DNA of 64,000 bases, from NCBI GenBank assembly GCA_051313645.2, contig JBNRSN020000015.1:100936001-101000000 (forward strand), in the 5' to 3' direction. The notes beneath the pieces were generated by a model, which made no database searches, was not told where the DNA came from, and was given only the letters and a program-made list of their open reading frames with translations. How positions within the stretch are numbered: the first letter of the stretch is position 1; each line of letters starts with the position of its first letter. Shown piece after piece: positions 7,278 through 49,502 of the stretch. The DNA is from Centroscyllium fabricii (lineage: Eukaryota). The translations under genes and the position numbers were made by a program.

Positions 7278-7473
7278 GGATGTGGAGGTGCCGGTGTTGG
7301 ACTGGGGTGGACAATTGTACGAAGTCACACAACACCAGGTTAGAGTCCAACAGTTTTATTTGAAATCACAAGCTTTCCGAGCGCTCCGAACCTGAGGAAG
7401 GAGCTGTGCTCCGAAAGCTTGTGATTTAAAATAAAACTGTTGGACTCTAACCTGGTGTTGTGTGACTTCTTGT
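7278..7473 (-). mobile_element. Penelope-like family A hairpin insertion
   Basis: Inverted arms, CTGAGGA..GAAA hammerhead core, 13-bp TSD CATGTAACAGCCG (7265-7277 / 7474-7486). Confidence 0.8.
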
Positions 7474-8713
7474 CATGTAACAGCCGCTGCCTTGGTTCGG
7501 TCGAGTCAAGCCAAGAGCATTTTTCCAATGGTGAATTTTCCCCTTTGTTGTTTCGCGAGACAGACAGTGGCGAGACAGAGTGGTGTCTTGGCTGTGTGCG
7601 TATGTGTCACCTTGTCTCATTATTGTTACAGAACATCGAATATATTTTGACAATGAGCTTTTGTCCCGTCCCCCCACCCTCTCCCCGTGTTAATGGCGGC
7701 GCTTTAGACCATTAGCTGTCAGATCTTCAGGCCGTAAGCGGAGGCTGTTGAACCAGAAGTGAAAATGAACATCCGAGGAGGATGTGAACTCACGAGAAAC
7801 AAAACGGCGTTGAGCGGCGCTGCAGTGAAGGAGGGTTAGTTACCAGGAGCGGCCCGCAGTAGACGCGCTGCCCTGGGGGACGGGACGGGACGGGCAGAGG
7901 CCGCTGTATTGTTGCAAGTATTGGTTGTAAAAAGGAGAGTTGCCTGCAATAAAGGCCACTCGTGTGAGACTAGCCCATGTAATGCCGCTCTCCCTCCCGT
8001 CCCTGTTACACTCTCCTGGATGCACCTGCGCTATCTTCCCACTGGACTGCCCCGCGAGTCCACTCCAGGCAATAACTCAAAGAGCCCGAGCTGATGAAGA
8101 AGCGGCGCCCCAGTCCAGAGGTGCTTGGGTTACAGAAACAACTCATCCATCAGCCGGCTCGCCCAGGGCAGCCTGAGCAGCCGCCTTCAACTCAGCAGCT
8201 CCCCGGAGCAGAATGTCGGCACTTTCTCTCTCTCCCCCCACCCCCCTCCCCACCCCCAAGACTCACATTAAAAAAGCTAAACCCTGCCCGCTCTCTCTTA
8301 GCGAGATGCACTCCGGCAAAGGTGCCGTGTGCTGACCCCGCTGCAAGACTCCCTTCAAAACAAACACCGCCCCAAACAAGGTAACCTGAAAGAACGGGGC
8401 ACTTTGGACTGATTTATACTAAACAAAAGATTCTTTTTGTTTTTCTTTTTGGAGTAGTTTGGTGCTGAGTGATGCTCAATCGCCCAATGGGGTCAATGTC
8501 ACTATCTGTTGAGTGAGATTCAGGCTCCCTGTACATGGCTTTGGTTTGTAGTTGCTGTGCATTGGGTCTCAGATGTGAACGCCGTGTTAGTCCATCTTAA
8601 TCATTTAGCAATGAAATCTGTCTTTCACAAGCGCAGAAAGAAAGGCATTCTCAAAGCATTGTTGTGAAGAATTACCACTAATAAATGACACGAATATTTT
8701 TCCTGCACGATAG

Positions 8714-8801
8714 AATAGCAAAATACAGCGGATGCTGGAAATCTGAAATAACAACAGGAAATGCTGGAAACATTGGGCAGGCCAGGCAGCATCGGTGGAG
8801 A
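8714..8801 (-). mobile_element. Penelope-like family B 3'-end fragment
   Basis: aatagcaaaatacagcggatgctggaaatctgaaataacaacag...ggcagcatcggtggagag. Confidence 0.65.
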
Positions 8802-9219
8802 GTGTGTTCCTCATCGGTTTAGATGAGAACTTTGCGACCGGGGCTGTCGGGCTGATTCTATTGCACCGTGACAGCATCCTGGTGGACAGTCAGTCAGTCC
8901 GTTAGCAAAAAGATCCCGAATTAATGACAGAAAACGTGCAGATAATACAGCCACGTCCGCCGATTTCAAAAGGTTAACCCCCCCCCCCCCCCCCAAAATC
9001 GCTCCTTGTTGTTCGGTTCTCTAAATTGTAGTTCTCTGGAATATTGGAATGAAAGCAAACAAAACCAATCGGCAGTGCTTTTAATTCAAGTTGTAATGCA
9101 ACAACTCAGTTTCAAATATAGGATCGCGATTTGTTCCTTTTGGAAACATCCCATTGATTCCCTACTGAACATTATTTTGTTGTTTCAAATACTCAAGCTT
9201 GTTCTTTACAACTCATTAC

Positions 9220-9840
9220 ATCTACACAGCGCGTTTAACGCAGGAACACCATCAGAGGCAATTCACAGGAGCGGGATAAGTCAGGCATTGACACCCATCC
9301 AAAGGATACAGTGGGTGCAAGTTTTAAGAGAGGGTCTCAGAGGAGGAGAGAGGGGCGTGAAGACCGAGAGGTTTAGTTAGGGAGGGGATGTCAGAGCCTC
9401 GGCTCTCAAGGCATGTCTGCCGATGGTGTGGAGGTGCCGGTGTTGGACTGGGGTGGACAATTGCAAGAAGTCACACAACTCCGAAAGCTTGTGATTTAAA
9501 ATAAAACTGTTGGACTATAATCTGGTGTTGTATGACTTCTTGCAATTGCCGATGGTGGGGTTGAAGAGAGTGTAGGGTGTGCAGGAATCCAGAGGATAGG
9601 GTTGGGGGGGGGGGGGGGGAGGCCATGGGTGGATTTGAACGCAAGGATGAGAATATTAAATTCAAGGTAACGCTGGCCAGGGACCCAATGTAGGTCAGCG
9701 GGCACAGGGGTGATTAGACTTGTTTCAGCTCCGAATATGGGGAGCTGAGATTTGGATGAGCTCACATTTGTGGAGGGTGGAAGATGGGAGGCCAGCAGAA
9801 TCGTTTCGTCTGGAGGTAACCAAAGCCTGGGCGAGGGCTG
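9220..9840 (-). mobile_element. L2-type LINE 3' fragment, degraded and interrupted
   Basis: Minus-strand peptide ITPVPADLHWVP..EFNILILAFKSTHGLPP resembles the L2 ORF2 C-terminal motif ITPVLxxLHWLP..FKIL..FK.LHG.AP. Confidence 0.7.
9429..9546 (-). mobile_element. Penelope-like family A short hairpin insertion inside L2
   Basis: TSD TGCCGATGGTG (9418-9428 / 9547-9557); family A tail plus inverted arm. Confidence 0.8.
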
Positions 9841-9909
9841 CGGCAACAGATACATGTTTTGTAAACAGATACATAGTTTAAAAATAAATCAATACCATAA
9901 ATTCATATT

Positions 9910-10314: not shown

Positions 10315-10452
10315 GCCAGCCTTGTAACCTCGTTATATATTTAATTTATACCTACATACAACTACCGTTAATTCATCAAATTAGTGTTCAGGTTTTGGCC
10401 ACGGCGCTATTTCGCTAGGCTTTACAACAAATGCAAATGCTTGAGTGAGTTA

Positions 10453-10614
10453 TGATGTGGAGGTGCCGGTGTTGGACTGGGATGGACAAATGCAAGAAGT
10501 CACACAACACCAGGTTATCGTCCAACAGTTTTATTTGAAATCACAAGCTCCGAAAGCTTGTGATTTCAAATAAAACTGTTGGACGATAACCTGGTGTTGT
10601 GTGACTTCTTGCAG
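10453..10614 (-). mobile_element. Penelope-like family A hairpin insertion
   Basis: Near-perfect inverted arms; TSD TTGAGTG(A/G)GTTA (10441-10452 / 10615-10626). Confidence 0.8.
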
Positions 10615-11332
10615 TTGAGTGGGTTAGTCAGAGAGCTCACTTGTTTTGGATGTGAGCGAAGTGTAGCAACAAATGGTAAACCCGTTGCTCAGACACGGGT
10701 TTGCGATTTCATTACAGATAGCGCACAGAGGAAATGTCCTCTCCTCCCGCTGCCCTGCCAACCCAAGCGGAGAGTGAATGTGTCATCCCGGAATCCGAGC
10801 GTCTTTCTCTGAATATTCTTCAAACGCCACAATGTTTCAACAAGGAAGAAAATAACAGACGGGATGGCATTTTTGCTTCTCAGTTCAGACTAAAATATTT
10901 CGATGGGCCATGCATGCACTCAAATCATGTTGGAACGAGTGTCCAGCCCAGGCTCAATTCTGTAGTGTGTTCATTTCGAAATAAATCCGTAAATATTTAG
11001 ATACAATTGTGAATCAATTGCTGCACCTAAATGAGGCACCTAAAGATTAAACTTGGAAGCTCAATTTGTGGATATTACTCATCTGATTTGATTGTCCCAA
11101 TCTCAAATCGTGCTACCATGAAAACCCCAGCCTATTTGTTACAATCCATTTTTCCCACAGCGTCAAACTTTTGGAAATTTTCAGACAGATTTGACTTCCG
11201 TGTGCTTTTCACGCGAAGAGACCTTATACACTCCAACTACTAGTTAACAGTATCCTAGGAATGTATTGTCCGTTGAAGTAAATACTAGTTTAGCGCATCG
11301 CTTTGTTGATGCTCAGCTATAACTGTTATTTA

Positions 11333-15870: not shown

Positions 15871-16767
15871 CCGCTTAAACTCTGTCTAGATGTATTTCTT
15901 TTACAAATAACCTGCCATTCATTCATGCTTCGAATTATTTTTACAGTGCACAACAAAAGTAACAGCTTTTCAGTTAGGCGCTGCCAGAAAAGTGTACTGA
16001 AATGTTGCACATGTTAAACTTTAACATGTTAGTACACTGTGCATGTGTGCTTGGATGAGGTGCATAGCTCCATTCACTGGGCAGTTAATTTCTATGTTAC
16101 ACCACATGTTGAAATGGTTCCTCTCCATTTATATGGAGTACTTTTATTTCATGTTGATGTTTCAGTGCTCCGTGCAAAAAGAAAATACATTTGGGGAAGT
16201 CACGCAGAGGGGAAGTCATGCGGTTACAAAAGCACTTGACTATAAAGTTATAAATCTGCCTGTTGTCTTAGTCCCAAATCACTCCAGAGGACACTCGCCC
16301 ATTATTTTCCACTTTCACTACCTATTGCAATTCTTCAACTTTTTAATAAAAGTCACTGTACATTTTATTATATTCTTTTAACTACCTTGCAAAACGAGAC
16401 TAACCATTACATTGAAAGACTCCCCGCCATGATCTAGCAAGCTTCTCCAGCGAAAAGCTCAGGTACCCAGATAGTGAAGGTCCCAAGTTCAGTCTGCTTC
16501 GAGCTAACTGATTCCAGCCAGGTGGAAGCAGCTTTGCTCGAATTGGCTCCGGCACCCCAGAAAATAGGGCGGAGGCAATTAGTCAGAATTACACAGCTCA
16601 TCACCATCATCAATGGACCCTGGCGGATGAGCGAGGACAAGATTGGGTTCACCGCACAGTAGCAGGAACAAAGCTAGGTAGGTGTCGGCACTGTACAGCC
16701 ATCTGTCCAATATCTACCCTCAAATCAGTTGCCCCAAGGGATGTGGTACAGACATTGCTGATATTTT

Positions 16768-16853
16768 GTAAGAAGTCACACAACACCAGGTTATAGTCCA
16801 ACAGTTTTATTTGAAATCACAAGCTTTCAGAGTGTAGCTCCTTCATCAGGTGT
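16768..16853 (-). mobile_element. Penelope-like family A single-arm fragment
   Basis: aagaagtcacacaacaccaggttatagtccaacag...ccttcatcaggtg (CTGATGA core on the minus strand). Confidence 0.75.
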
Positions 16854-16913
16854 AAGTACTTTTGTACCACGTTGATTGTCTTGCTACTGAACCTGGCTGC
16901 AGGTTAAAGCCAA

Positions 16914-17136
16914 ATGCAAGAAGTCACAAAACACCAGATTATAGTCCAACAGTTTTATTTTAAATCACAAGCTTTCGGAGCTTTTGCCCCTTCGTCAGGT
17001 GAAAGAGAGACTCCTGACGAAGGGGCAAAAGCTCCGAAAGCTTGTGATTTAAAATAAAACTGTTGGACTATAATCTGGTGTTGTGTGACTTCTTGCATTT
17101 GTCCACCCCAGTCCAACACCGGCACCTCCACATTAT
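16914..17136 (+). mobile_element. Penelope-like family A hairpin insertion
   Basis: About 85-bp inverted arms; TSD GGTTAAAGCCAA (16902-16913 / 17137-17148); tail on the right arm only. Confidence 0.85.
16965..17002 (-). ncRNA. Minimal type I hammerhead ribozyme motif (family A exemplar)
   Basis: Minus strand: TCAC-CTGACGA-A-GGGGC-AAAA-GCTCC-GAAA-GC-TT-GTGA. Stem I TCAC/GTGA, core CUGANGA/GAAA, 5-bp stem II, palindromic AAGCTT instead of a stem III, as in dimeric Penelope hammerheads. Activity untested. Confidence 0.65.
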
Positions 17137-17250
17137 GGTTAAAGCCAAGATTGCTGTTTGGTTGTAACAGTCTACAACTGGGAATTCCTGATTACATGAT
17201 TCCACAATGAAGCAACAGCATCAATTAGGAGCTGAATATAGGAAAATAAT

Positions 17251-17990
17251 AGGCCGGATTTTCCATCCCCCGTGGGTGCGTACAAAGTGTGTACACACCC
17301 ACGGGGGCCGTGCAAGTGCCGGGTTTAGGCAGGCGAAGCACAGGCGCTAAAACCCGGCACTTACGCTCTGTCAAGAGTCCTCTTGGCAGACCGCAAGTGC
17401 CGGGTTTTAGCGTACGCCCGGGAGCTGGGCCTGTGCGGGTGGAGTGTTCCCCCTTTCTGTACAACTTCCGCCCACTGAAAACCTTTAAGTATCTTACGCC
17501 TGGTAAAAGCAGGCATAAGGCCAGCATTTACCCGCATAAGAGTTTAAAAAAAATTAACACATTTCACTGATTTATAATTTTAAAATACTTTTAAAAAAGG
17601 CAAGTTTATTTTTAGCCCTGTAAATTTTCTCAAAAAGTTACATTTGTTTAATATTTAATGTAATTTTAATTAATTTTAAATACAGGTATATGATTTTTTT
17701 TTAAATATTTTATGTTTTACTTTTTTTAAAGTGACCCCCATTCATACTTTTGATCATGCTGTGCGTACAGATGTCAAAAATGTGAAGTGGGATTCCCTCC
17801 TTTGATTGGTTCCCCTTGGACACTTATGAACTGCCTGCGCCCCTGGAGTACCAGGGCCTCTGCGCATTTCCTAGAGCAGAGGCCCATGATCGCGAACCTC
17901 GGGACCTATGGAGCCAGCAGGTAAGTTCGTGGATTTTTTCTGATCAGAGGCATCCGCCCGCACAAAGCCTCCGATCGGCAATTCAGGCCC
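17251..17990. mobile_element. MITE / non-autonomous DNA transposon (PIF/Harbinger-like)
   Basis: Imperfect TIRs AGGCCGGATTTTCC / GGCAATTCAGGCCC, 3-bp TSD AAT, GC-rich ends with internal palindromes (gtgccgggttt / aaacccggcac), AT-rich core. Confidence 0.65.
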
Positions 17991-18267: not shown

Positions 18268-19265
18268 CATAAGAACATAAGAAATAGGAGCAGGAGTAGG
18301 CCAATCGGCCCCTCGAGCCTGCTCCGCCATTCAACAAAATCATGGCTGATCTGATCCTAACCTCAATTTTATTTTCACTCTCCATCCCGCCCAAACCCAT
18401 GTGATCACCCGGGAGAGGCGAAAAACCAGATAAAAAACCCAGTGGCCAATTTGGGAGAAAAAATCTGGGAAATTCCTCTCCGACCCATCTAGGCGATCGA
18501 AAACTGGTCCAGGAGATCACATGGCCGATCTGAACCTAGCCTCACGTCCACTTACCTGCCCGCTCACCATAACCCCTAATTCCCTTTACTTCCAGGAAAC
18601 TGTCTATCTCTGTTTTAAATTTATTCAATGTAGTAGCTTCCACAGCTCTCTGGGGCAGCAAATTCCACAGCCCCACCACCCTCTGAGTGAAGAAGTTTCT
18701 CCTCATCTCAGTTTTGAAATGGCAGCTCCTTATTTTAAGATTATGCCCCCTAGTCCGAGTTTCACCCACCATTGGGAACATCCTCACTGTATCCACCCGA
18801 TCAAGCCCTCTCACAATCTTATATGTTTCAATAAGATTGCCTCTCATTCTTCTGAACTCCAATGAGTAGAGGCCCAATCTACTCAGCCTCTCGTCATATG
18901 TTAGCCCCCTCATCCCCGGAATTAACCTCGTGAACCTTCTTTGCACTGCCTCGAGAGCAAGTATGTCCTTTCTTAAATAGGGATACCAGAACTGCACGCA
19001 GTATTCCAGGTGTGGTCTCACCAATACCCTGTACAACTGCAGCAAGACCTCCCTGCTTTTATACTCAATCCTCTTAGCAATAAAAGCCAACATTCCGTTG
19101 GCCTTCCTGACCACCTGCTGCACCTGCATATTAACTTTTGTGTTTCCTGCACCAGGACCCCCAGATCCCTTTGCACTGAAGTACTTTCCAGTTCCTTTCC
19201 ATTTAGATAATAACTTGCTCTATTATTTTTCCTGCCAAAGTGCATAACTTCACACTTTCCAGTAT
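18268..19265 (-). mobile_element. CR1 LINE 3' ~1 kb with RT C-terminal ORF and extended 3' UTR
   Basis: ORF 18542-19129 (KANGMLAFI..LVRPHLEYCVQFW..RRMRGNLIETYKI); tail (TTCTTATG)n. Confidence 0.92.
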
Positions 19266-21310: not shown

Positions 21311-22023
21311 AGAAACATAGAAGATAGGAGCAGGAGTAGGCCATTCGGCCCCTCGAGCCTGCTCCGCCATTCAATGCGATCATGGCTGATCATCAATTTC
21401 AGTACCCTGTCCCTGCCTTCTCCCCATATCCCTTGATCCATTTAGCCTTAAGAAATATATCCAACACCTTCTTGAATATATTTAATGAATTGGCCTCTAC
21501 TGCCTTCTGTGGTAGAGAATTCCGCAGATTCACCACTCTCTGGGTGAAGAGATTCCTCCTCAGCTCTGTCCTAAATGGCTTACCCCTTATCGTTAGACTG
21601 TGACCACTGGTTCTGGACTCCCCCGCCATCGGGAACATCCTTCCTGCATCTAGTCTGTCCAGTCCTGTTAAAATGTTATAAGTTTCAATGAGATCCCCTC
21701 TCATTCTTCTAAACTCCAGCGAGTACAAGCCCAATCGACCCAATCACTCCTCATACGTCATTCCGGCCACCCCAGGTATCAGTCTGGTGAATCTTCGCTG
21801 CACTCCCTCCATGGCAAGAACATCCTTCCTCAGATAAGGCGACCAAAACTGTACACAATACTCAAGGTGTGGTCTCACCAAGACCCTCTACAACTGCAGA
21901 AAGACATCCTTGTTTCTGTACTCAAACCGTCTCGCTACGAAGGCCAACATACCATTTGTCTTCTTCACTGCCTGCTGCACCTGCATGCTTACCTTCAGCG
22001 ACTGGTGCACAAGGACGCCCAGG
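21311..22023 (-). mobile_element. Younger CR1 3' fragment, antisense inside the older CR1
   Basis: ORF 21399-21743 (RLGLYSLEFRRMRGDLIETY..); tail (TTCTATGT)n shared with SINE family 1. Confidence 0.9.
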
Positions 22024-23044: not shown

Positions 23045-23802
23045 TAAAGTTTGCAGATGATACAAAACTCATAAATGCAGTAAACAATGAGGAGGATAGT
23101 AACAGACTTCAAGAGGACATAGACAAACTGGTGAAATGGGCAGACACAGTACACATGAAATTTAACACAGAAATAGGAGGTGGTACATTTTGGTAGGATG
23201 AGGAGAGGCAATATAAACTAAATTATGCAATATTAAAGGGGATACAGGAACAGAGACACCTGGGGGTGTATGTACTCAAATCTTTGAAGGGGGCAAGACA
23301 AGCTGAGAAGTCTGTTAAAAAAGCATATGGACTCCTTGGCTTTATTAATAGAGGAACAGAGTACAAAAGCAAGAATGTTATGAAACACTGGATCGGCCTC
23401 ATCTGGAGGATTGTGTTCAATTCTGGGCACCACACTTTAGGAAGGATATCAAGGCCCTGGAGAGGGTGCAGAGGAGATTTACTAGAATGTTACCTGGGAT
23501 GAGGGACTTCAGTTATGTCGAGAGACTGGAGAAGCTGGGGTTGTTCTCCTTAGAGCAGAAAAGGTTAAGAGCAAATTTGATAAAGATGTTCAAAATCATG
23601 AATGGTTTTGATTGAGTAAATAAGGACAAAACTGTTTTCAGTAGCAGATTGGTTGGTAACTGGAGGATAGAGATTTAAGCTGATTCGGCGACAGAAACAG
23701 AGGACACAATGAAACCTTTCCACACAGCGAGTTGTTGTGATCTGGAATGCAGTGCCTGAAAAGGGCAGTGGAAGCAGATTCAATAGTGACATTCAAAAGG
23801 GA

Positions 23803-24092
23803 TGATGTGGAGGTGCCGGTGTTGGACTGGGGTGGACAAATGCAAGGAGTCACACAACACCAGGTTATAGTCCAACAGTTTTATTTGAAATCACAAGCTT
23901 TCGGAGCGCAGCCCCTTCCTCAGGCGAAAGAGAAGTTGGTCCAAAGACAGCACATATACAAGGGAGGCTCTCCCTTGTATAAGTGCTGTCTTTGGATCAA
24001 CTTCACTTCATCTGAGGAAGGAGCAGCACTCCGAAAGCTTGTGGTTTCAAATAAAACTGTTGGACTATAACCTGGTGTTGTGTGACTTCTTG
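23803..24092 (-). mobile_element. Penelope-like family A long hairpin insertion inside CR1
   Basis: About 125-bp inverted arms; TSD CATTCAAAAGGGA (23790-23802 / 24093-24105); CTGAGGA..GAAA core in both arms. Confidence 0.85.
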
Positions 24093-24539
24093 CATTCAAA
24101 AGGGAATTAGAGAACTCCTTGAAGGGAAATAACAATAGGGCTTTGGGGAGCTGGGATTAAATGGATAGCTCTACCAAAGAGCAGGCACTGGTACGATGGG
24201 CCGAATTGCTTCCTTCTAGTGCCATCCTGTGATTCGAATAGTGAAGCTCCTTAACGTTTTCCATTTAAAAATCGCAATTTTAATTAAACATCAATACTTA
24301 GTGCCTTGCCTGGATGAATGTTGAACTCCGTTTATAAAACCGTATTATGGAAACAAATATTGCTTCGTTCGGAGGGAAACTTTTATTTCTGATTAGCAAA
24401 TACAACTCAGTCGGGAGTCATGGGTCGCTATCATTTGCCATTTTCTTATCTGTATGTGCTTGTGATTTCACGGAGGAAGATGCACCATTGATGTATAAAC
24501 TACAGAGAACCCGAGAACATCAACCACTGTGACCTGTCG

Positions 24540-24762: not shown

Positions 24763-24992
24763 AACGACTGTTACCTACTGGCGTATCCTATCCCTCAGTG
24801 CCCATCCATGGGTTTGTGTAACTAGAAGCAAATATAGTAACAAGACTATAGCAAATACATGTAATGTGCTTTATCCATTTCTGTTCTGCTTTCTCCTCTT
24901 CCGTGCACTTTAATAAAACATCTCTGCCGACAATGCCGAGCACACCGGTTACTCGTACGCCAGGTGCAGGTCCTCATCCTCTCTGAAGTTTT

Positions 24993-25200
24993 AATGTAAG
25001 GAGTCACACAACACCAGGTCACAGTCCAACAGCTTTATTTCAAATCACAAGCTTTCCGAGCACTGCTCTTTCCTCAGGTGAAGTCAGGAGCTATGCTCTG
25101 ACAGCTTGAGATTTCAAATAAAACCGTTGGACTATGACCTGGTGTTGTGTGACTTCTTACATTTGTCCACCCCAGTCCAACACCGGCGCCTCCACCTCAG
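24993..25200 (+). mobile_element. Penelope-like family A hairpin, older and diverged
   Basis: Inverted arms with tail on the right; flanked by CTCTGAAG direct repeats. Confidence 0.75.
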
Positions 25201-34131: not shown

Positions 34132-34497
<366 letters not shown>

Positions 34498-34940: not shown

Positions 34941-34978
34941 GTGTGAAAAACTCTGGCAGAACAGGGTTGGCTGCCACG

Positions 34979-36233
34979 ATAGAAACATAGAAGATAGGAG
35001 CAGGAGTAGGCCATTCGGCCCTTCGAGCCTGCTCCGCCATTCAACGAGATCATGGCTGATCATCCAAACCCAGCACCCTGTCCCTGCCTTCTCCCCATAT
35101 CCCTCGATCCCTATCGCGCCTGCACCGACACATATTCAATTCAATTCAATTCAAGTTTTATTGTCATTGCAGAGTACTAGTACAATACAACGAGACGAAG
35201 ACTCGACTCTCCCGAGAGTAGTGCAAATAAAATAAATAAATTACATGCAAAATGCATACAGTAGAGTACATTATCAGGCGTGCAGGTACCGGAGTTTCTT
35301 TTTAGAGTTCAGGAGGCTGACAGCCCTGGGGAAGAAGCTGTTCTGAAATCTAGTCGTGCGGGTGCAAATTGCTCTGTAGCGTCTCCCGGAGGGCAGGGGT
35401 GCGAACAGACTGTGGCTGGGGTGTGTGGGGTCTTTAATAATGTTCATAGACCTCCGTAAGCAGCGTTTGAGGTAGATGCTTTCCATTGACGGTAGCTGTG
35501 TACCGGTAATTCGTTGGGCAGTTTTGACTACCCGCTGCAGGGTTTTCCAGTCCGAGATAGTGCAATTACCATACCAGACAGTGATGCAGCTTGTCAGTAT
35601 GCTTTCTATTGTGCAGCGGTAGAAGTTGGAGAGGATGCCGGATGACAGCCTGGCTTTCTTCAGATTCCTTAGGAAGTACAGGCGCTGTTGGGCCTTCTTA
35701 ACCAGAGAGGAGGTGTTTAGTGACCAGGAGAGATCTTCCAAGATGTGGACCCCGAGGAACTTGAAGCTGGACACCCTTTCCACCTCAGCCCCTTGGATGA
35801 AGATGGGGGTGTGTCTTCTGCTTCCAGTCCTCCGGAAGTCCACTATGATCTCCTTGGTTTTCTTGGTGTTCAGTGCCAGGTTGTTGTCGGCACACCAACC
35901 CACAAGGCGCTGGATCTCATCCCTGTAGGCTGACTCGTCGTTGTTGGTGATCTGGCCAACCACCGTGGTGTCATCCGCGAACTTGATGATCGTGTTGGAG
36001 CCATGGACAGCCGCACAGTCGTGAGTGAAGAGGGAGTAGAGGAGGGGGCTGAGCACACAACCTTGTGGGGCCCCCGTATCCCCCACATATTCAATCCCCC
36101 TAACACTAAGGGTCAATTTATCCTGGCCAATCAACCTAACCCGCACATCTTTGGACTGTGGGAGGAAACCGGAGCACTCGGAGGAAACCCACGCAGACAC
36201 GGGGAGAATGTGCAAGCTCCACACAGATAGTAC
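34979..36233 (-). mobile_element. V-SINE family 1, 5'-truncated, split by a Rex1-like insertion
   Basis: SINE 3' part at 34979-35135 and V-domain part at 36072-36233. Confidence 0.85.
35136..36077 (-). mobile_element. Rex1/Babar-clade non-LTR retrotransposon, 5'-truncated, uninterrupted RT frame
   Basis: TGAPQGCVLSPLLYSLFTHDC..IIKFADDTTVVG..NNLALNTKKTKEIIVDFRR..KKAQQRLYFLR, stop at 35274; (TTGAA)n tail at 35136-35155. Confidence 0.9.
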
Positions 36234-37056
36234 AAGAAAGGCTAAATTCTATTATGACAGTATGTCAGCATCAAGCAATTCTTCATCAGGAGTAGCATTG
36301 GTCAGATGCAGAATAAAACCCGGTCTGCTCTGCACCAACAGTTGGCATAAACTCCGACATTAGTATTGCAGAGGCACTGTGGTTACCATTGTCTTAACCA
36401 CTCAGCCCTTTGGGCTATCGTCGATAGAGACGTGACAATCAAGGTGGTTTTATACTGGCCCTCCTAGAGTTTGGATCACATGAGATCACTATGTAGAGGA
36501 TCCCTGCGTTCACATTCCAAAACATATATTCTCCCTGCGTTTACATTCTAAAATCAGTTCTGATGCTAAAATAGCAGACCTACATTTTCATGGATTTACA
36601 ACTGTGCCGTCAGAATAACGGAGTTAGTTTTAGCACTGTATGGGGGCAAAACCGGCGAGAGGACATTGGTAGCCAATTTTACACTCCGCCCTATTTTCTT
36701 TACCATAATTGAGTGGAGTGTAAAACTGGCGGTCACTGTCCAAGATGAATTTCACCTCCTACTGCAAAAACTGACTTCATTATTCTGATGCCAAAATTGG
36801 AATTCCATGAAAATGTGGGAAGCCAATGCGTGGACAACACTATTTCAGGTGAACTACAGAAGCGCCAAATGTAAAAACACCCTAATACTGCAGTTATACT
36901 TCAACTACTGTGTGACAACTGTTTTAGAGTGGGGAGAAGGGGAAGCACAAAGTAATGCTGCCTTGTTCTACCACTCAAAATTCAGGGAAAGTAGAGCTCG
37001 GTGCACTGTAACCTAGTATAGGGATGTGTACGACTGGAAAATACTTTGCAATTCAC

Positions 37057-37407: not shown

Positions 37408-37471
37408 TCTGGCAGGCCCCCAAAACTATACTGCTCAGTCACCCACCCTCAAATATTGATTCACTGTTCAT

Positions 37472-39755: not shown

Positions 39756-40361
39756 TATTGTCAAAATTTCAGTTGCTAGCCTCCATTTGAATTGAGTTAT
39801 AAAATAAATTATATTGCATGCAGTCGGAGTAGATTTATTTGCACAAACAAACAATCATGAATGTGGAAGATCCAGAGACATTTATCGCAAGACATCGGAC
39901 TCCTAGGATAATATTTATCAGTAACATAATTGGTAATAAAAACAGCAGAAACAAATTTATTTTGAATGACCTTTGTTCAATACATTATAACCTAAAGTGT
40001 GCATTTACACTGCAGCTACCAGTCTTGGATCAATAGCTGCAGTTCAAGTTCCAGTCAGAACCTTGCTTGGCTCATGCCTTGCTGGAACTCGCATTTAGGA
40101 GGACACACAAATCTCCAAAACGTCAGCAATTTAAATGTCAAGAGTAAATGCTCTGTAAACATTTAAATTAGGATCAGATATGTTTCCAAAAGTACTTGCG
40201 AGGCCCAAAACACCCCAAGCACTTTGCCAAGCTGGATTGACGCTGCACTGGTTTAATGGTGGATTGACACTCGGCAAGTTTAGTATTGGTGCAAAGATCA
40301 AATTGCTTGAATTGATGCTAAACTGAGAATCAGGTGTCAAGGCACAAACTTACTCCAAGAA

Positions 40362-40717
40362 TGCAAGAAGTCACACAACACCAGATTATAGTCCAACAGT
40401 TTTATTTTAAATCACAAGCTTTTGGAGCTTCTGCCCCTTCGTCAGGTGAAAGAGAGACTGACTTAAAGAACGCACATATGTGATGAAGAGAGAAATCTGA
40501 TATCTCCCACATCTCACCTCAGTAGATGTGGGAGATATCAGATTTCTCTCTTCATCACACATGTGCGTTCTTTAAGTCAGTCTCTCTTTCACCCGACGAA
40601 GGGGCAGAAGCTCCGAAAGCTTGTGATTTAAAATAAAACTGTTGGACTATAATCTGGTGTTGTGTGACTTCTTGCATTTGTCCACCCCAGTCCAACACCG
40701 GCACCTCCACATTATGG
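40362..40717 (+). mobile_element. Penelope-like family A, longest hairpin (about 155-bp arms)
   Basis: Arms about 40361-40514 and 40524-40678, 9-nt loop, few mismatches; TSD TTACTCCAAGAA (40350-40361 / 40718-40729). Confidence 0.88.
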
Positions 40718-41723
40718 TTACTCCAAGAAGACTACTTTCTCCAGGAAATTTCATTGAGGTCAGGCCCATACACCAAATTCAGTCTCCAATTACACTAACT
40801 GCAACATCAATGAGAAGCAAAATTGCATTGTGCTGGCACTACAGAAAGTTAAATGCACCATTACAATATATGCAGTCAAACTCAAGCAGTGCAAGACTTC
40901 AAGGAGGCCGATTCTACTTCTAGGCCCTGACTCTGGATTTAAGGTGTATTTGTAATACAACATCAGTAAAAAGTGGGTTTGCTTTACACCAATGCTGCAG
41001 TTACAGTGTAATGGAAGCCACAGTCACAGCCTGACCTGACATCAGAAGAAAATGGAGCAAGTCTCCTTGGAGGATGGAGTCGTACTCTGCTTTGGTGTCA
41101 ATCTGGGCCTCAGCACCCGATTTACACTACACAAGTTTGCTAGTGCAAAGACGAAGCGGCTTCACACCAATGTTAAACTTGTAGGGTAAATGCACCCTTA
41201 CTACACTGTCAGTTTTGCATTGGTGTGAAGTTAATGTGAATGCATCCTTATATTCCAGCTGGTATCAGAGTCAAGCAGTACAAGACTGTGCCTTCCAAGG
41301 AGTCTCACAGCTTCACTCTGCCATCAGGTTAGGCCGCAACTCTGAATTAAGGTTGCTTTTCCGGTGCAGAATGAACCCATGTGCACTGACGCTGCAGTTA
41401 TAGTGCAAATTTTTTGGGTATGTAGTAAGCAGCTCACCAGAGAATCCCTGCAATTTTCAGTGAAATCAATGGATCAAAATTACAGGCTGCACGCTTGAGA
41501 TTTTACAATAAGCCATCTGCTGCATAGAAGGCCATGCTGGTGGAATGGGATCTCGGGCAATTTGGGCAGCGTGTAAACGCAGTCTGAATCTGCAGCCTGG
41601 GTTGGAAATAAAATTGGAGCAAAATTGAATGAGACTCCAAGGGAAGAAAGACTTACTGTACATTGCTTTCAGTTCAGGCTTGACATAATTTACGCCACAC
41701 AAATTGATCATGTCAGAGTTAGT

Positions 41724-42833: not shown

Positions 42834-43852
42834 CATAGAAACATAGAAGATAGGAGCAGGAATAGGCCATTCGGCCCCTCGAGCCTGCTCTGCCATTCAA
42901 TGAGATCATGGATGATCATCCAAACCCAGTACCCTGTCCCTGCTTTCTCCCCATATCCCTTGATCCTTCTAGCCTTAAGAAATACATCCAGCTCTTTCAA
43001 TGAACTAGCCTCTGTGGCAGAGAATTCCACAGGTTCACCACTCTCTGGGTGAAGAAATTCCTCCTCACCTCTGTCCTAAATGAGTTACCCCTTATCCTTA
43101 GACTATGACCCCTGGTTCTGGACTCTCCGACCATAGGGAACATTCCTCCTGCATCAAGTTTGTCCAGACCAGTTAGAATTTTATACGTTTCGATGAGATC
43201 CCCTCTCAATCTTCTAAACTCCAGAGAGTACAAACCCAGTCTACCCTCATACGTCATTCCTGCCATCCCAGGTATCAGCCTGGTGAATCTTCTCTGCACT
43301 CCCTCCATGGCAAGAACGTCCTTCCTTAGATAAGGAGACCAAAATTACACACAGTACTCAAGGTGTGGTCTCACCAAGGCCCTGTAAAACTGCAGCAAGA
43401 CCTCCCTGTTCCTGTACTCGAACCCTTTCGCCATGCGGCACGGTGGCTAGCACTGTTGCCTCACAGCTCTGGAGACCCGGGTTCAAATCCAGCCTCGGGT
43501 GACTATCTGTATGGAGTTTGCACATTCTCCCCGTGTCTGCGTGGGTTTCCTCCGGGTGCTCCGGTTTCCTCCCACAGTCCAAAGATGTGCGGGTTAGGTT
43601 GATTGGCCATGATAAATTGACCCTTAGTGTTAGGGCGATTAAATATGTGGGGTTACGGCGATAGGGTGGGATATGTGTTGGTGCAGGCTTGATAGGGATA
43701 TGGGGGGAGGGCAGGGGCGGGGTGCTGGGTTTGGATGATCAGCCATGATCTCATTGAATGGCGGAGCGGGCTCGAAGGGCCAATTGGCCTACTCCTGCTC
43801 CTAGTTTCTATGAAGGCCAACATACCATTTGCCTTCTAACCGCCTGCTGCAC
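42834..43852 (-). mobile_element. CR1 LINE 3' fragment interrupted by a SINE
   Basis: ORF 42997-43308 (EGVQRRFTRLIPGM..); CR1 resumes after the SINE at gaaggccaacataccatttgcc. Confidence 0.88.
43434..43812 (+). mobile_element. V-SINE family 1
   Basis: Matches the other family 1 copies. Confidence 0.9.
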
Positions 43853-45851
43853 AGGCCTGAAATCTTCATGGAAGATTTGACATTTATTATGCAATAGAAT
43901 TGAGGCGGAAACTTGAACCATAACTTCACTTCGGAAAAACAGCGCAATTTCAAGCACAATGCCTGTCTCGTTTCCCAATTGTGCCCAGAGCGGAAATTCT
44001 ACCCTGCCATCTTTAGTGTTGTTGCATTGTAGTGTGAAAGTACAAGAGAAAGCTGCTGCAACTTTGTTGAGCTGAGGAAGTGACCCAATTGTAAGAGACT
44101 GGTGTGCTTCAAAGTTAGTAATTGTTAACTTTCCAGGACACATTCACTCTGGTGTAGAATTTCAATAAATGCAAAAAAGCTAGTTGTAATATTAATCACA
44201 AAATAGTTGTGCTATTGGGCAAGTGATAAATCAAGATCCTTACAGAAACAAACACACAATTATTTTCATAGCTTCTTTGCAGTGTGGAAATTTGGGATAG
44301 AGCTTTCCCGTATCAGTATTGATCATGAAATGCACCAATTCAAACCAAATACATTTGAATACCCTCCTGATTTCTACTGTTGGCATCAGTTCAGTTATTA
44401 TTCAAACTTTGTCCAAAATTTCATAATAGAAATCCCTATTTCTAAACTGGTTTTCAGTTTCTATTTTTTATGCAAATAGAGTTGTTGTCAAATATCTGGG
44501 CAGTATAAGTAGACTAAATCATGGAAAACAAAAGGACGATGTTAAGATATTCTAAAGTTTGGTTCTGCAGGGAATGGCTAAACATTCTGCAGCTATTTCA
44601 TGCCAAAGAAATATTTGTTGAGCTATTTTTGCTGGATAATATGACACAATGATTGTGGGTTTAATGAACTGCAGCATTTTGCAGCCCGGTCCCATTTTGA
44701 AGAACATTTCTCTCCTTCAGTCTGAATGCTCTTAGTAATGAGTAGTTGAAAATCAAAACCAGCAGAGCCAGTACACTGGTGGAGTAGGGTTGTGAAAAAG
44801 AGATCCACACAAAGATGCACACATGTAAAGATGAGAGTCTATATTTCAAATGGGGATTTTAAACAGTCACAGTTGTGATCTCTCTGGGTGTTACTATAAA
44901 ACAGTAATATATAGTCCATGTATGTTTTTAATTATATAGATTACAGTCTTTGTAAATCTGATAAACATTTCCCTGAAGGCTGCAAGGATTTTGAGTTAAA
45001 TGTGCAGGGTACTTTAGGATATTATATCCATCTTAAGTCATGTTTTCCCTCACCAACGAACTTCTAAATTTGTACATAAAAAGAAACCATAAGAAACTTG
45101 ATGAGGAAAGCGTTTATGGTTTTGATGCGCAGTGGAGATATCCCATCCCCCCCACCCCCTCAATCAAATGCATTAGGAGCCAGCAAAGTGCAATATTTAA
45201 ACTTCTCAAGATGCTGCAGCGGTCTGATTGACAGTCGAGTCCCAGGCTTGGTGCAGACAGGGTAAAGGCCATTTCGCCTATCGGAGGAACCATTTGACCG
45301 AGTTCGTTGCAGCAGGTGGGCTGACTGACAGGTCCAGGGTGAGGACACTGGCTATTTTAGAAACAACATCTACTATTGGATACAGGAGTTGAACAGCAAA
45401 TCCCATTTAGATGCCTGAAGATCGAGATGTGAACACATTCTGCGGCCACGAACAGAAAGAATCAAAGCGGGAAAAGCCGCCCACATTTACAGATTAAAGC
45501 ATAATTGAAAATCACTGGAGTTGAATAAACACCTTAACGGCATGTTTTATGTTTATTTAGTGCGGAGTTTGCGAGAAATGCGAGGAGGCAGGTTAAAATG
45601 AGCTAAATTGAGGCTGACTGCAACCACGATTAAAATATATGGAGGAGCTGTGTTTATTTTTCCAGAGATATGTGTAAAATCGGTTACAGCTCCAAAGTAC
45701 AATGATTACACACTCGACTTTACCAAAGATAACCTAATGCTAAAAAATACATGGTTTGGTTAGGTCGTCTACAAAACACTTTCGATTATTTTACTCGCCC
45801 CTCATAAATTGCTGAGCCCACCCTATCATGATGAACAGTTTTAAAATAAAC

Positions 45852-45962
45852 TGCAAGAAGTCACAAGCTTGTGATTTGAAATAAAACTGTTGGACTATAA
45901 CCTGGTGTTGTGTGACTTCTTGCATTTGTCCACCCCAGTCCAACACCGGCACCTCCACATCA
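45852..45962 (+). mobile_element. Penelope-like family A minimal insertion
   Basis: Very short inverted arm plus tailed arm; TSD TTAA(A/G)ATAAACTG (45841-45853 / 45963-45975). Confidence 0.8.
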
Positions 45963-46877
45963 TTAAGATAAACTGACATTTGGACAATTTGACATGCACA
46001 CGGAACACTCCGACACCATTATTCAAAACCAAGCTTATATTGGCTCGTGTTATTTCACAGATATGTATCTGATCACCCGTTATAAAGAAATTTGTTAACA
46101 AACCGACGACCACAGTACAATGTCGAGCCCCCTCAGATGAAAGTTACACAGAGCAGGGTCACTGTAGTTACAAGACGGTCTGCAATTAGCCACCAAGTAA
46201 TTAGTAATCAAGGGAAAGTGCAACGAAATAAACTAGCAAACCAAGTAAATATTAAAGTTCCTACCCCCGAGTGCACAGCACACTTCAAATTAATTAATTT
46301 CAGGTCAAAGTTTACAATAGGAACAAAAGGCAAATGCAGAGGGAACTGTGAGGAATGCAAAGACCTTCAAACATCAGTACCAGGCCCAAATTGCATTCCT
46401 ACCCTAACTCAGTCTCGTTACACTTTACTCCCCTGCAAAGGCCTCATTTTTTCCCCAAAAACATGCTGCAATAAAGACTTTTCTCTGTTGTTGGTCAAAA
46501 TATAGTCATTGTAATACTTCTGCAAAATACGCTTTCATAAGCGTTATTCCACAACATCATTCTATTTACTTCGGTGGTGACCAAAAGAGAATAGTCTGGA
46601 CTAAAGATTATCTCATAATTTCCTTCAGCGCCGTGGCCTGGAAAATCAACAGGGACACCTGCAGCTCAGGGACCTGCAAGGATTTGATCACAAGTGGCTC
46701 TTGAGGCAAAGGCTGCAACATTTCAAAGGGCGATGGATAACAAGGAATGGAATAAAAGTAGAGAAAGGGCAGGGACCCGGGTTGAATGTGCATTGCTGCA
46801 GTTGATGAGCTACTGACAGGACAAGTGGGGTGGGCCGCTCCTTGTAGTGTTAAATTAAACTGCATGTGGCTCGATAT

Positions 46878-46947: not shown

Positions 46948-46959
46948 TTCTATAGGCAT

Positions 46960-47652
46960 ATGGGTAGTAAGAGGAGGGGCGGGGCTGATTAGGGACCAAA
47001 AAGGAGACCTACACGTGCAGGCAAGGGCATGGCTGAGGTACTAAATGAGTACTTTGCATCTGTCTTCACCAAGGAAGAAGGTGCTGCCATTAGACATAAT
47101 GAAGGAGGAAGTAGAGGAGATATGGATGGGATAAAGACGAGGTACTAGAAAGGCTGGCTGTACTTAAAGTAGATAAGTCACCAAGACCGGATGGGATGCA
47201 TCCTTGGACGCTGAGGGAATTGAAGGAAGAAATCGCGGAGGTACTGGCCATAATCTACCAATCCTCCTTTGAAACGGGGGTGGTGCCAGAGGGCTGGAGA
47301 ATTGCAAATTTTACACCCTTTTTCAAAAAAGGTTGTAAAGATAAACCCAGCAACTACAGGCTAGTCAGTTTAACCTCGGTAGTGGGGAAGCGTTTAGAAA
47401 CAATAATCAGGGACAAAACAGTCACTTGGACATGTGTGGATTAGTTAACGAAAGCCTGCACAGATTTGTTAAAGGCAAATCGTGTTTAACAAACTTGATT
47501 GAATTTTTTGATGAGGTAACAGAGAGGACTGATGAGGGCGATGCGGTTGACATGGTGTACATGGATTTCCAAAAGCCGTTCGACAAAGTACCACATGCTT
47601 GCCAGCAAAGTTGAAGCCCATGGAATAAAAGGGACAGTGGCTGCATGGATTT
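46960..47652 (+). mobile_element. CR1 LINE internal RT fragment
   Basis: HPWTLRELKEEIAE..WRIANFTPFFKKG..NYRLVSLTSVVGK and KSCLTNLIEFFDEVT..VYMDFQKPFDKVPH. Confidence 0.9.
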
Positions 47653-48047
47653 GGGCAGCACGGTGGCACAGTGGTTAGCACTGCTGTCTCACAGCACTGG
47701 AGACCCGGGTTCAAATCCGGCCTCGGGTACAATCTGTGTGGAGTTTGCACATTCTCCCCGTGTCTGCGTGGGTTTCCTCCGGGTGCTCCGGTTTCCTCCC
47801 ACAGTCCAAAGATGTGCGGGTTAGGTTGATTGGCCATGATAAATTGACCCTTAGTGTTAGGGGGATTGAGTATGTGGGGTTACGGGGATGGGGCGGGATA
47901 TGTGTCGGTGCAGGCTCGATAGGGATCGAGGGGTATGAGTAGGGGCGGGGTGCTGGGTTTGGATGATCAGCCATGATCTCAATGAATGGCGGAGCAGGCT
48001 CGAAGGGCCGAATGGCCTACCCCTACTCCTATCTTCTATGTTTATGT
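47653..48047 (+). mobile_element. V-SINE family 1, full length
   Basis: Matches the other family 1 copies. Confidence 0.9.
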
Positions 48048-48136
48048 TTCTCCACCGATGCAGCCTGGCCTGCTGAGTTTTTCCAGCATTTTCTGTTGCT
48101 ATTTCGGATTTCCAGCATCTGCAGTATTTTGCTATC
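48047..48136 (+). mobile_element. Penelope-like family B 3' end
   Basis: tttctccaccgatgcagcctggcctgctgagtttttccagcattttctgttgctatttcggatttccagcatctgcagtattttgctat. Confidence 0.7.
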
Positions 48137-48759
48137 GTCCAGGCTAGTCCCCAATGGCCAAACCATTTCCTTTCTCCAAGCATTAACACGGGCTGCAGAA
48201 AGTCGCATCGTTTTGCACCTTACCGGTACCGTCAGATGAATCATCTGTTTATTTGTCAGGCACAAAGCCCCACACGTGAACTCTTCACTAGAGGTGCTGA
48301 TCTGCACCGACAATAAATGAAGACATCTCAAACTACTCCCGCGCCACATTCCCCAGGTACCAACAACCTGCACAAGGCCAAATCCTTTCCTCTGCTTAAT
48401 CCCGACAATGACTGATAGTTTACTTTACCAGTTACTGCCTCCAGAAAATTCCTGCCCCTCAGAGAGTGATCAGCCCTGCCTTCAGGAAACAAGCCACTTT
48501 TCCTCACCTGCCTGCTCTGCTTTCATCATCGCCGCTTGAGGAGGTCCAGCCAGCATCACACTTCCCAACCCTGCCTCCACACGGTAACAGCAATGGGCTG
48601 TACCAGCCGGCTTTGAAAAAGAAACTCTCTTTATTGCCAAATCAGGTCCCCCCACCACTGAATAACATGCTGCTTTTTTTTAAACCAGTGACTCTTTTAT
48701 ATTAAAATTAAACAATTTTACACAAAACAACATTTACAGAGCTCAAGTCACAGCTCCCG

Positions 48760-49502
48760 GCAAAGTCACAAGCCCTCATGTTTTCAAATGCAATTAGTCA
48801 CACAACACCAGGTTATAGTCCAACAGTTTTATTTGAAATTACAAGCTTTCGGAGCGCTGCTCCTTCCTCAGGTGAAAGAGAGATGCATTTAAACACAGCA
48901 CTGAGAGATTAGATTGCTATATACGCTGTGTTTAAATCAACTTCTCTCACACCTGAGGAAGGAGCAGCGCTCGGAACCTGGTGTTGTGTGACTTCTTGCA
49001 TTTGTCCACCCCAGTCCAACACCGGCACCTCCACATCATGTCTTCAAGGCAGGGGTCAAAAGTCACAAGGCAGGGGTCAAAGTCACAAGCCCTCATGTCT
49101 TCAAGGCAGGGTCAAAAGTCAAGCCCTCATGCCTACAAGGCAGGGGTCAAAAGTCACAAGGCAGGGGTCAAAGTCACAGGCCCTCATGCCTACAAGGCAG
49201 GGGTCAAAGTCGCAAGCCCTCATGCCTTTAAGGCAGGGTCAAAAGTCACAAGGCAGGGGTCAAAGTCGCAAGCCCTCATGCCTTCAAGGCAGGGGTCAAA
49301 AGTCGCAAGGCAGGGGTCAAAGTCACAAGCCCTCATTGCTACAAGGCAGGGGTCAAAGTCGCAAGGCAGGGGTCAAAAGACACAGGCCCTCATGTCTATA
49401 AGGCAGGGGTCAAAAGTCACAAGGCAGGGGTCAAAGTCACAAGCCCTCATGTCTACAAGGCAGGGGTCAAAAGAACAAGCCCTCATGTCTACAAGGCAGG
49501 GG
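48760..49502. repeat. Two-module minisatellite (CAAGGCAGGGGTCAAAAGTCA and CAAGCCCTCATGYCTW)
   Basis: Many alternating modules at 49040-49502; first unit starts near 48761, before the family A insertion. Confidence 0.92.
48788..49036 (+). mobile_element. Penelope-like family A hairpin inserted in the first minisatellite unit
   Basis: TSD CATGT(T/C)TTCAA (48777-48787 / 49037-49047); inverted arms, right arm internally deleted. Confidence 0.8.

What the first reader, a model, noticed from the sequence alone, without database searches (positions are those of the whole stretch)
7278..49036. Family of self-inverted, hammerhead-bearing mini-retroelements (family A) with a fixed one-sided tail
Seen: nine 110-360-bp insertions (7278, 9429, 10453, 16914, 23803, 24993, 40362, 45852, 48788) plus one single-arm fragment. 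Each has two 5'-truncated copies of the same 3' end joined head-to-head, and most have 11-13-bp TSDs. Only one arm carries the ~35-40-nt tail TTTGTCCACCCCAGTCCAACACCGGCACCTCCACATCA. Longer arms contain CTGANGA-A-stem II-GAAA-GCTT-GTGA, where stem II stays paired while its loop varies (AAAA, AGAA, TGT, TGC, AGC). Known: Penelope-like elements carry minimal dimeric hammerheads, short 3' tails and inverted 5'-truncated pLTRs. Inference: this is a dense population of Penelope 3'-end hairpins, possibly non-autonomous and retrozyme-like, and possibly uncatalogued for this lineage.
Basis: partly seen in the sequence, partly recalled or inferred. Interest (0 to 1): 0.75.

Follow-up and report, generated by a model that had tools for sequence, protein, structure and literature searches.

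The report
Truncated Penelope retrotransposon hairpins in shark
Nine short hairpin-shaped insertions in the introns of a shark developmental gene are most likely dead, cut-short copies of a Penelope-type jumping gene, a known kind of structure, useful mainly because their shapes record how such elements insert.

Summary
Nine 109-356-bp head-to-head insertions and one solo arm lie in the introns of a shark ALX4 gene. Eight of nine have 11-13-bp target duplications, and a 31-41-nt tail sits on one arm only. A minimal type I hammerhead lies about 55 nt upstream of the tail-less end, but stem II shows no two-sided covariation, Rfam gives no hammerhead hit, and several cores are broken. The architecture is the published signature of Penelope-like elements: an inverted 5'-truncated pseudo-LTR, a 30-40-nt one-sided tail (the gap between two RT start sites) and a dimer-type hammerhead. 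Intronic Penelope expansion is already reported in whale shark. 'Retrozyme-like' is not supported: there is no head-to-tail repeat, all nine centres differ, and the hairpin buries the ribozyme. I could not link the family to an RT/GIY-YIG master. One new lead: the two arms of an element share private variants and stop at correlated positions (rho 0.93, n=9), and the centre belongs to the tail-less arm in 5 of 9. This suggests one RNA region copied twice in a coupled reaction. Verdict: new member of a known kind, modest interest.

The parts
7278..7473 (.). E1: head-to-head element. Tail arm on - (about 7278-7384), tail-less arm on + (about 7391-7473, hammerhead C3 at 7392). An 11-nt stretch at the centre repeats antisense sequence, like a templated insert.
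   Evidence: duplication 7265-7277 / 7474-7486 (13 bp)
9429..9546 (.). E2: short tail arm on - (tail plus about 18 nt), longer tail-less arm on +; no complete hammerhead
   Evidence: duplication 9418-9428 / 9547-9557 (11 bp)
10453..10614 (.). E3: near-perfect hairpin, arms 0 of 57 different, joined through the short palindrome in hammerhead stem III; tail on left
   Evidence: duplication 10441-10452 / 10615-10626 (12 bp, 1 mismatch)
16767..16857 (-). F: solo tail-less arm with a hammerhead core (C3 at 16849), weakened stem II, no convincing duplication
16914..17136 (.). E4 (subfamily B): tail-less arm on - with a complete minimal hammerhead (C3 at 16998); tail arm on + (C3 at 17014, 5' strand of stem I truncated)
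   Evidence: duplication 16902-16913 / 17137-17148 (12 bp)
23803..24092 (.). E5: tail arm on - (C3 at 23923), tail-less arm on + (C3 at 24012); arms differ by 10 substitutions and 1 gap in 126 columns
   Evidence: duplication 23790-23802 / 24093-24105 (13 bp)
24993..25200 (.). E6: older-looking element; arms differ at 10 of 76 columns; hammerheads damaged or truncated
   Evidence: only an 8-bp flanking repeat (24981-24988 / 25201-25208)
40362..40717 (.). E7 (subfamily B): longest element; 153-bp arms with 3 differences and a 9-nt centre; each hammerhead core has one substitution; the tail ends in an ATG with a purine at -3 and G at +4
   Evidence: duplication 40350-40361 / 40718-40729 (12 bp)
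45854..45962 (.). E8: tail arm on +; the other arm is either about 12 nt long or a longer arm with an internal deletion
   Evidence: duplication 45841-45853 / 45963-45975 (13 bp, 1 mismatch)
48788..49035 (.). E9: tail-less arm on - (C3 at 48871); tail arm on + with an internal deletion of about 35 nt; inserted in a minisatellite
   Evidence: apparent duplication 48776-48787 / 49036-49047
6791..7142 (+). Host gene ALX4, first coding exon; E1 lies about 135 nt downstream of the likely splice donor
   Evidence: 92% identity to a protein named ALX4b of Heterodontus francisci
34132..34257 (+). Host ALX4 exon with the end of the homeodomain
52207..52545 (+). Host ALX4 last coding exon with the OAR motif

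Best explanation
These are dead-on-arrival, heavily 5'-truncated insertions of an endonuclease-bearing Penelope-like retrotransposon (Penelope/Poseidon type) in a shark. Only the pseudo-LTR end survives. Shown in the sequence: a staggered target duplication of 11-13 bp; two fixed outer ends 31-41 nt apart on the element (proximal = tail-less, distal = tailed); short matches between target end and element at both outer ends; variable inner ends; one template lineage per element; a minimal type I hammerhead upstream. Inferred by analogy with the anole element PAc (PMC11167929): the element's protein nicks both target strands. One free 3' end primes reverse transcription at the proximal internal start site and the other at the distal site, so the same stretch of RNA is copied twice. 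Both cDNAs stop early and their 3' ends are joined, giving a head-to-head hairpin with the tail on one side. I put this two-primer route at about 0.45, cDNA fold-back at about 0.35, and independent templates with later trimming at about 0.2. The hammerhead belongs to the parent's tandem transcript, where it would cut as a dimer or with protein help. In these copies it is a passenger, because the antisense arm is transcribed first in either direction and pairs with it.
For: Anatomy and nulls. [quoted passage not shown] The isolated motif folds with stems I and II at -11.2 kcal/mol against a -12.0 minimum. An inverted 5'-truncated copy with a 30-40-bp tail at one end is typical of these elements (PMC8557442). 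Head-to-head junctions with 8-10-bp duplications are described in PMC3846280, and dual minimal hammerheads 100-700 bp apart on opposite strands in PMC4209133. PAc cleaves and extends both strands, and its tail is the gap between two RT start sites. Target-to-element matches: 19 nt over 8 proximal ends against 2.7 expected, and 12 nt over 7 distal ends against 2.3. Arms of one element are closer than arms of different elements (13 mismatches; 2 of 720 pairings as low; 6 of the 9 elements usable). Arm 5' extents correlate (rho 0.93; permutation p 0.005 or 0.0002 depending on how E8 is read). P(G10.1-C11.1) in pre-mRNA context is at most 7e-6 in the 3 sense-strand copies with an intact core.
Against: No RT/GIY-YIG master was found. 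Pfam found no such domain in 337 of 337 open frames of 62 aa or more in the window; the single RT hit is a LINE-type fragment at 35277-36248. Protein searches with translated frames of the repeat gave no link: 0 of 53 candidates, 0 hits among 1.84 billion representatives, and 1 unnamed 55-aa record, P0122. Rfam gave no hammerhead match on the window or on one isolated motif. Stem II has no compensatory change. The 3' stem-loop that includes the tail has unremarkable z-scores (0.04 to -0.51). Arms of E5, E6 and E9 differ by about 9-13% or by indels, which may mean age or two templates. The arm extents were set by eye on only 9 elements. The distal-end match for E9 (5 of the 12 nt) used a reference that included its own duplication.
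Confidence: 0.85

Rival explanations
1. Same element, but the inversion arises by self-priming (fold-back): a single cDNA folds on itself and is copied back, and the second end is fixed by endonuclease resolution. Self-priming, on an antisense template, was proposed in PMC3846280.
For: It explains shared private variants and correlated arm lengths as well as the best model does. The centres of E1, E3 and, on one reading, E8 fall on short palindromes. Self-annealing gives inverted duplications at L1 breaks (10.1101/2024.12.14.628481).
Against: Fold-back of the tail-bearing cDNA predicts that the centre belongs to the tail arm. It belongs to the tail-less arm in 5 of 9 (E1, E2, E3, E4, E6) and to the tail arm in 1 (E9: 1 of 1000 shuffles, best of 4 comparisons); E5, E7 and E8 are undetermined. 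Fold-back of the tail-less cDNA needs a second priming anyway to supply the tail. The E4 and E6 junctions show 0-1 nt of microhomology (read by eye).
Confidence: 0.35
2. Two independent RNA templates or longer original insertions, with arm lengths evened out later by deletion of the hairpin centre and arms homogenised by conversion.
For: E5, E6 and E9 arms differ, with 8 of the 10 E5 substitutions in the inner 60 columns. E8 and E9 carry internal deletions. Long palindromes are unstable (established knowledge, recalled).
Against: The least diverged elements (E3, E4, E7; 0-3 differences) already have matched arm lengths and shared private variants.
Confidence: 0.2
3. A non-autonomous, retrozyme-like family in which the hairpin or a short hammerhead RNA is itself the mobile unit.
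For: Very short copies, high density (2001 bp, 3.1% of the window), and no ORF sequence in any arm. A 2026 preprint derives retrozymes from Penelope pseudo-LTRs and finds them in one cartilaginous fish (10.64898/2026.07.22.740005).
Against: No head-to-tail copy; nine different centres; the ribozyme is buried; only 3 of the 11 arms that reach the core pass the strict descriptor. A short non-coding source RNA elsewhere in the genome is not excluded.
Confidence: 0.12
4. A MITE or foldback DNA transposon with long terminal inverted repeats.
For: Inverted arms flanked by a target duplication.
Against: The tail lies outside the inverted repeat on one side only; the inner ends vary freely; duplication length varies from 11 to 13 bp; a solo arm exists; a hammerhead sits in the arm.
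Confidence: 0.02

Closest known systems
Poseidon_Ac (PAc) of Anolis carolinensis, Penelope/Poseidon clade (PMC11167929)
   Same: Hammerhead upstream of two fixed ends that define an optional 30-40-nt tail; an AC-rich tail region that folds into a stem-loop; the last five tail letters of most copies here also occur near the end of the PAc stretch printed in its Fig. S1.
   Different: In PAc the ORF starts at hammerhead stem II and the tail is coding. Here that frame has a stop at the cleavage site and an ATG follows the tail (link to an ORF unverified). The cut-to-proximal-end distance is about 55 nt here; in PAc one start lies about 85-92 nt past the cut. Target duplications here are not uniformly AT-rich.
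Adineta vaga Pen2/Pen3 and Drosophila virilis Penelope (PMC3846280, PMC2377424)
   Same: Head-to-head inverted pseudo-LTRs, one-sided 31-34-bp tail, 8-10-bp duplications, palindromes at junctions; in D. virilis the 34-bp repeat lies at the start of the ORF.
   Different: Those copies keep ORF sequence and are few. Here 9 of 10 copies are pure pseudo-LTR hairpins, about one per 6.4 kb, with 11-13-bp duplications.
Minimal hammerheads of metazoan Penelope-like elements (PMC4209133)
   Same: Type I, extra nucleotide after A9, G10.1-C11.1, short stem I, palindromic stem III; pairs on opposite strands 100-700 bp apart were noted in Schistosoma.
   Different: Stem II is 5 bp; the predicted cleavage nucleotide is U; no shark example appeared in the text I read or in the two supplementary files searched.
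Non-LTR retrozymes (PMC7229834; 10.64898/2026.07.22.740005)
   Same: Short, non-coding, type I hammerhead, related to pseudo-LTRs.
   Different: Retrozymes are head-to-tail tandem units able to release and circularise a monomer. These are head-to-head, truncated and self-sequestering.

Membership tests
Penelope-like elements with endonuclease (Penelope/Poseidon) | Single ORF with telomerase-like RT and GIY-YIG endonuclease linked to this pseudo-LTR | tested here: inconclusive
   None in the window; three protein searches gave no link; no eukaryotic genome collection was available. Absence is expected for truncated copies.
Penelope-like elements with endonuclease (Penelope/Poseidon) | Variable 5' truncation with an inverted head-to-head copy | tested here: met
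   9 of 10 copies
Penelope-like elements with endonuclease (Penelope/Poseidon) | Optional 30-40-nt tail at one end | tested here: met
   31-41 nt in the 8 elements measured; one arm only in 9 of 9
Penelope-like elements with endonuclease (Penelope/Poseidon) | Target-site duplication of variable length; 3' end not a poly(A) or simple repeat | tested here: met
   11-13 bp in 8 of 9 against a null; 3' ends read
Penelope-like elements with endonuclease (Penelope/Poseidon) | Minimal type I hammerhead in the pseudo-LTR | tested here: met
   Descriptor hits 7 relaxed and 3 strict against nulls 0.17 and 0; no Rfam hit
Penelope-like elements with endonuclease (Penelope/Poseidon) | Partial-tandem (direct) pseudo-LTR arrangement of active copies | not testable with these tools
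   No direct tandem in the window; the rest of the genome was not available
Hammerhead ribozyme (type I, dimer-dependent) | Conserved core, stems I and II, palindromic stem III | tested here: met
   complete in 3 of the 11 arms that reach the core
Hammerhead ribozyme (type I, dimer-dependent) | Compensatory covariation in stems | tested here: inconclusive
   0 of 9 pairs with a two-sided change among 18 closely related arms; too little divergence to test
Hammerhead ribozyme (type I, dimer-dependent) | Self-cleavage | not testable with these tools
   Needs an assay
Non-LTR retrozymes | Head-to-tail tandem units, each with a type I hammerhead | tested here: not met
   definition
Non-LTR retrozymes | Expression as self-cleaved linear and circular monomers | not testable with these tools
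   No RNA data; folding in context argues against it
MITE / TIR DNA transposon | Inverted repeats at both termini, fixed internal structure, fixed duplication length | tested here: not met

The most novel reading that the evidence does not exclude
In this shark the inverted product is the default outcome of Penelope insertion (9 of 10 copies), and its geometry records the mechanism. Two reverse transcriptases of one protein dimer start 31-41 nt apart on the same RNA, from the two target nicks. The trailing, tail-bearing one displaces the leading cDNA and halts about 8-17 nt behind the stalled leader. This would give same-template arms, coupled lengths, and a centre that belongs to the tail-less arm. 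If the local density holds genome-wide, the many short hairpins would make the unexplained inversion step of Penelope transposition testable from sequence alone. The antisense-first layout would also silence the ribozyme inside host introns.
Probability: 0.25. Interest if true: 0.55.

Novelty: new member of a known kind. Interest (0 to 1): 0.27.

Why it matters
Two things are of some value. First, how these elements form their inverted structures is still called undefined (PMC8557442), and short hairpins with both arms, both ends and the target duplication intact are a natural data set for choosing between two-primer synthesis, fold-back and later trimming. Second, nine hairpins with stems of up to about 150 bp sit in the pre-mRNA of a developmental regulator. 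They could be substrates for editing or small-RNA processing, and they could be mis-annotated as MITEs or microRNA precursors (sub-threshold microRNA matches).

Tried and rejected
Rfam on the whole window: 17 matches at E up to 5, all below gathering score, mostly microRNA models fitting the hairpins, no hammerhead. Rfam on one isolated motif: only a weak snoRNA match. Searches for a master element through the open frame that runs into the ATG after the tail: nothing among longer proteins or among cluster representatives. A search with another frame gave one unnamed 55-aa record, P0122, which I did not use. Pfam on all 337 open frames of 62 aa or more: no GIY-YIG or Penelope-type domain. Covariation test on stems I and II: negative. 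Folding z-scores of the hammerhead and of the 3' stem-loop: not above shuffles. Co-folding two isolated motifs gave a minimum-energy dimer that is not the active hammerhead dimer (-25.8 kcal/mol, against -19.1 for a partial model with stem II plus the intermolecular palindrome), so energy calculation neither shows nor excludes dimer activity. The bacterial, phage and plasmid DNA collections were not searched, being irrelevant to a shark repeat. The viral and metagenome contig collections stayed unchecked. Nine literature searches showed no paper on this shark family or on arm-length coupling; the library lacks most subscription papers, and bioRxiv supplements, the PAc sequence file and one supplement of PMC4209133 could not be seen.


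Full report
Setting. The window is vertebrate DNA with a 200-N gap at 31769-31968. It holds an ALX4 gene on the + strand. The first coding exon starts at 6791 and is 92% identical to a protein named ALX4b of Heterodontus francisci; the ten best of 140 hits are all cartilaginous fishes. Further exons lie at 34132 and 52207, with the end of the homeodomain and the OAR motif. The host is therefore a cartilaginous fish, most likely a shark. All ten copies of the family lie between the first and last coding exons.

Observation. The nine elements and the solo arm are as described, with one start moved from 45852 to 45854. They total 2001 bp, 3.1% of the window. Each consists of two copies of the same 3' region joined at their truncated 5' ends. 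Eight of nine have 11-13-bp duplications with 0-1 mismatch; 3 of 300 random position pairs reached the lowest of those scores. The copy at 24993 has only 8 bp, and the one at 48788 sits in a minisatellite, which weakens its duplication. The tail-less end falls 39-43 nt from the 3' end of the longest copy in the 7 elements printed before that script stopped, and the tail measures 31-41 nt in 8 elements.

Hammerhead. Eleven arms reach the core. Seven pass a relaxed descriptor and three a strict one; simulated windows gave 0.17 and 0 hits, and there was no hit outside the family. The motif has a 4-bp stem I, an extra nucleotide after A9, G10.1-C11.1, a 5-bp stem II with loops of 3-4 nt, and a 4-nt palindrome in place of stem III. 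These are the traits given for Penelope hammerheads in PMC4209133. In the host pre-mRNA the three sense-strand copies with an intact core have P(G10.1-C11.1) of at most 7e-6, because the antisense arm pairs with them. Self-cleavage of the ALX4 transcript is therefore unlikely (inference from folding).

What it is. Inverted 5'-truncated copies and a 30-40-bp tail at one end are described as typical of Penelope-like elements (PMC8557442). Head-to-head is called the most frequent inverted arrangement, with 8-10-bp duplications and a 31-bp tail in rotifer examples (PMC3846280). Pairs of minimal hammerheads 100-700 bp apart on opposite strands were noted in Schistosoma and ascribed to truncated elements. 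For the anole element PAc, both target strands are cut and extended, reverse transcription starts internally at two adjacent sites, the tail is the sequence between them, and the hammerhead is protein-assisted and dispensable for insertion in vitro (PMC11167929). In D. virilis the 34-bp repeat lies at the start of the ORF (PMC2377424). This fits the ATG that closes the tail in 40362; whether an ORF starts there is unverified. Penelope elements, and their expansion in introns, are reported for whale shark. I could not find the master: no Penelope domain in 337 of 337 open frames and no informative hit in three protein searches. Membership rests on non-coding anatomy.

How it most likely formed. 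Shown: both outer ends share short matches with the target end (19 nt over 8 proximal ends, 2.7 expected; 12 nt over 7 distal ends, 2.3 expected, E7 left out because it is the reference and E9 partly circular). Shown: in the 6 of 9 elements whose two arms cover a common 54-column core, partner arms differ less than non-partners (13 mismatches; 2 of 720 pairings as low), and E1, E3, E4, E6 and E7 carry variants shared by their own two arms. Shown, with ends set by eye: the 5' extents of partner arms correlate (rho 0.93; p 0.005 or 0.0002 depending on E8). The centre belongs to the tail-less arm in E1, E2, E3, E4 and E6 (longer by 17, 47, 8, 13 and 14 nt) and to the tail arm in E9; it is undetermined in E5, E7 and E8. 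Shown: all nine centres differ. Inferred: one region of one RNA was copied twice in one event, primed from the two target nicks at the proximal and distal start sites, and the two cDNA ends were joined. Fold-back self-priming, proposed in another form in PMC3846280, explains the coupling equally well but predicts the opposite owner of the centre if the tailed strand is made first. Later trimming of longer palindromes is a third possibility; arms of E5, E6 and E9 differ enough (10 substitutions and a gap in 126; 10 in 76; indels) to allow age or two templates. Nine elements cannot settle this.

Retrozyme and MITE readings. Non-LTR retrozymes are head-to-tail tandem repeats with a hammerhead per unit. 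That test is not met here. A short non-coding source elsewhere in the genome remains possible. A terminal-inverted-repeat transposon is excluded by the one-sided tail outside the repeat, the free inner ends and the variable duplication.

Novelty. The kind is known; this family may or may not be in Dfam or Repbase, which I could not search. Nine literature searches showed no account of this shark family or of coupled arm lengths. The residual interest is the mechanistic lead.

Papers seen. PMC11167929: parts 1-2 of 4 and the text of supplements 1 and 2 (its sequence file unreadable). PMC4209133: parts 1-2 of 4; two supplements searched, one not searchable. PMC3846280: parts 1-2 of 5 and passages. 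10.64898/2026.07.22.740005: part 1 of 5 and passages, supplements closed. Passages only: PMC8557442, PMC8969392, PMC7229834, PMC6765202, PMC2377424, PMC8455134, 10.1101/443036, 10.1101/2024.12.14.628481. Lunse et al. on dimer cleavage (PMC5785218) was seen only as cited in PMC6765202. Hammerhead numbering, the NUH rule, the Kozak context, the CR1 and Rex/Babar labels and palindrome instability are recalled and come from no call.

Noticed in passing
window 7143-34131; N gap 31769-31968: The ALX4 exon that should encode most of the homeodomain (residues 128-218 of P0003) has no tblastn match in the window; it probably lies in the assembly gap. The best named hit, P0002, also lacks it.
   Followed up: partly
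window 6791-52542: All 10 family copies fall inside the ALX4 span and none in the 18 kb outside it (0.035 under uniform placement); weak and noticed after the fact.
   Followed up: partly
window 40711-40717 and 17131-17138: The tail of subfamily-B copies ends in an ATG with a purine at -3 and G at +4, and a 30-codon open frame runs into it from the hammerhead cut; possibly the start of the parent ORF. Protein searches gave no link.
   Followed up: partly
window 16914-17136, 40362-40717, 9480-9546: At least two subfamilies: B (4-nt stem II loop, G-U pair in stem II, distinct linker bases) and A (3-nt loop). Sequences upstream of the hammerhead diverge strongly between copies.
   Followed up: partly
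window 23945-23985 and 48916-48925: A TATA-like stretch lies about 35 nt upstream of the hammerhead in both E5 arms and in the E9 tail arm; it is absent from E7.
   Followed up: no
window 40640-40700 (and other tail arms): A 9-bp stem pairs part of the tail with sequence upstream and encloses the proximal end. It forms in 4 of 4 tail-bearing folds, but z-scores are unremarkable.
   Followed up: partly
window 48760-49503: Minisatellite of 34-, 36-, 57- and 91-bp variants into which E9 inserted.
   Followed up: partly
window 35277-36248 (-): 324-aa open fragment of a LINE-type RT with an ALKBH8_N match; Rex/Babar-like by recall.
   Followed up: no
window 18545-19219, 21402-21743, 25978-26382, 43000-43344, 51752-52117 (all -): 3' fragments of CR1-like LINEs (label recalled), all antisense to ALX4, plus several families of 250-300-bp tRNA-like SINEs.
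   Followed up: no
window 17340-17421: An unrelated hairpin with inverted arms inside a GC-rich repeat, matched weakly by a microRNA model; possibly a MITE.
   Followed up: no
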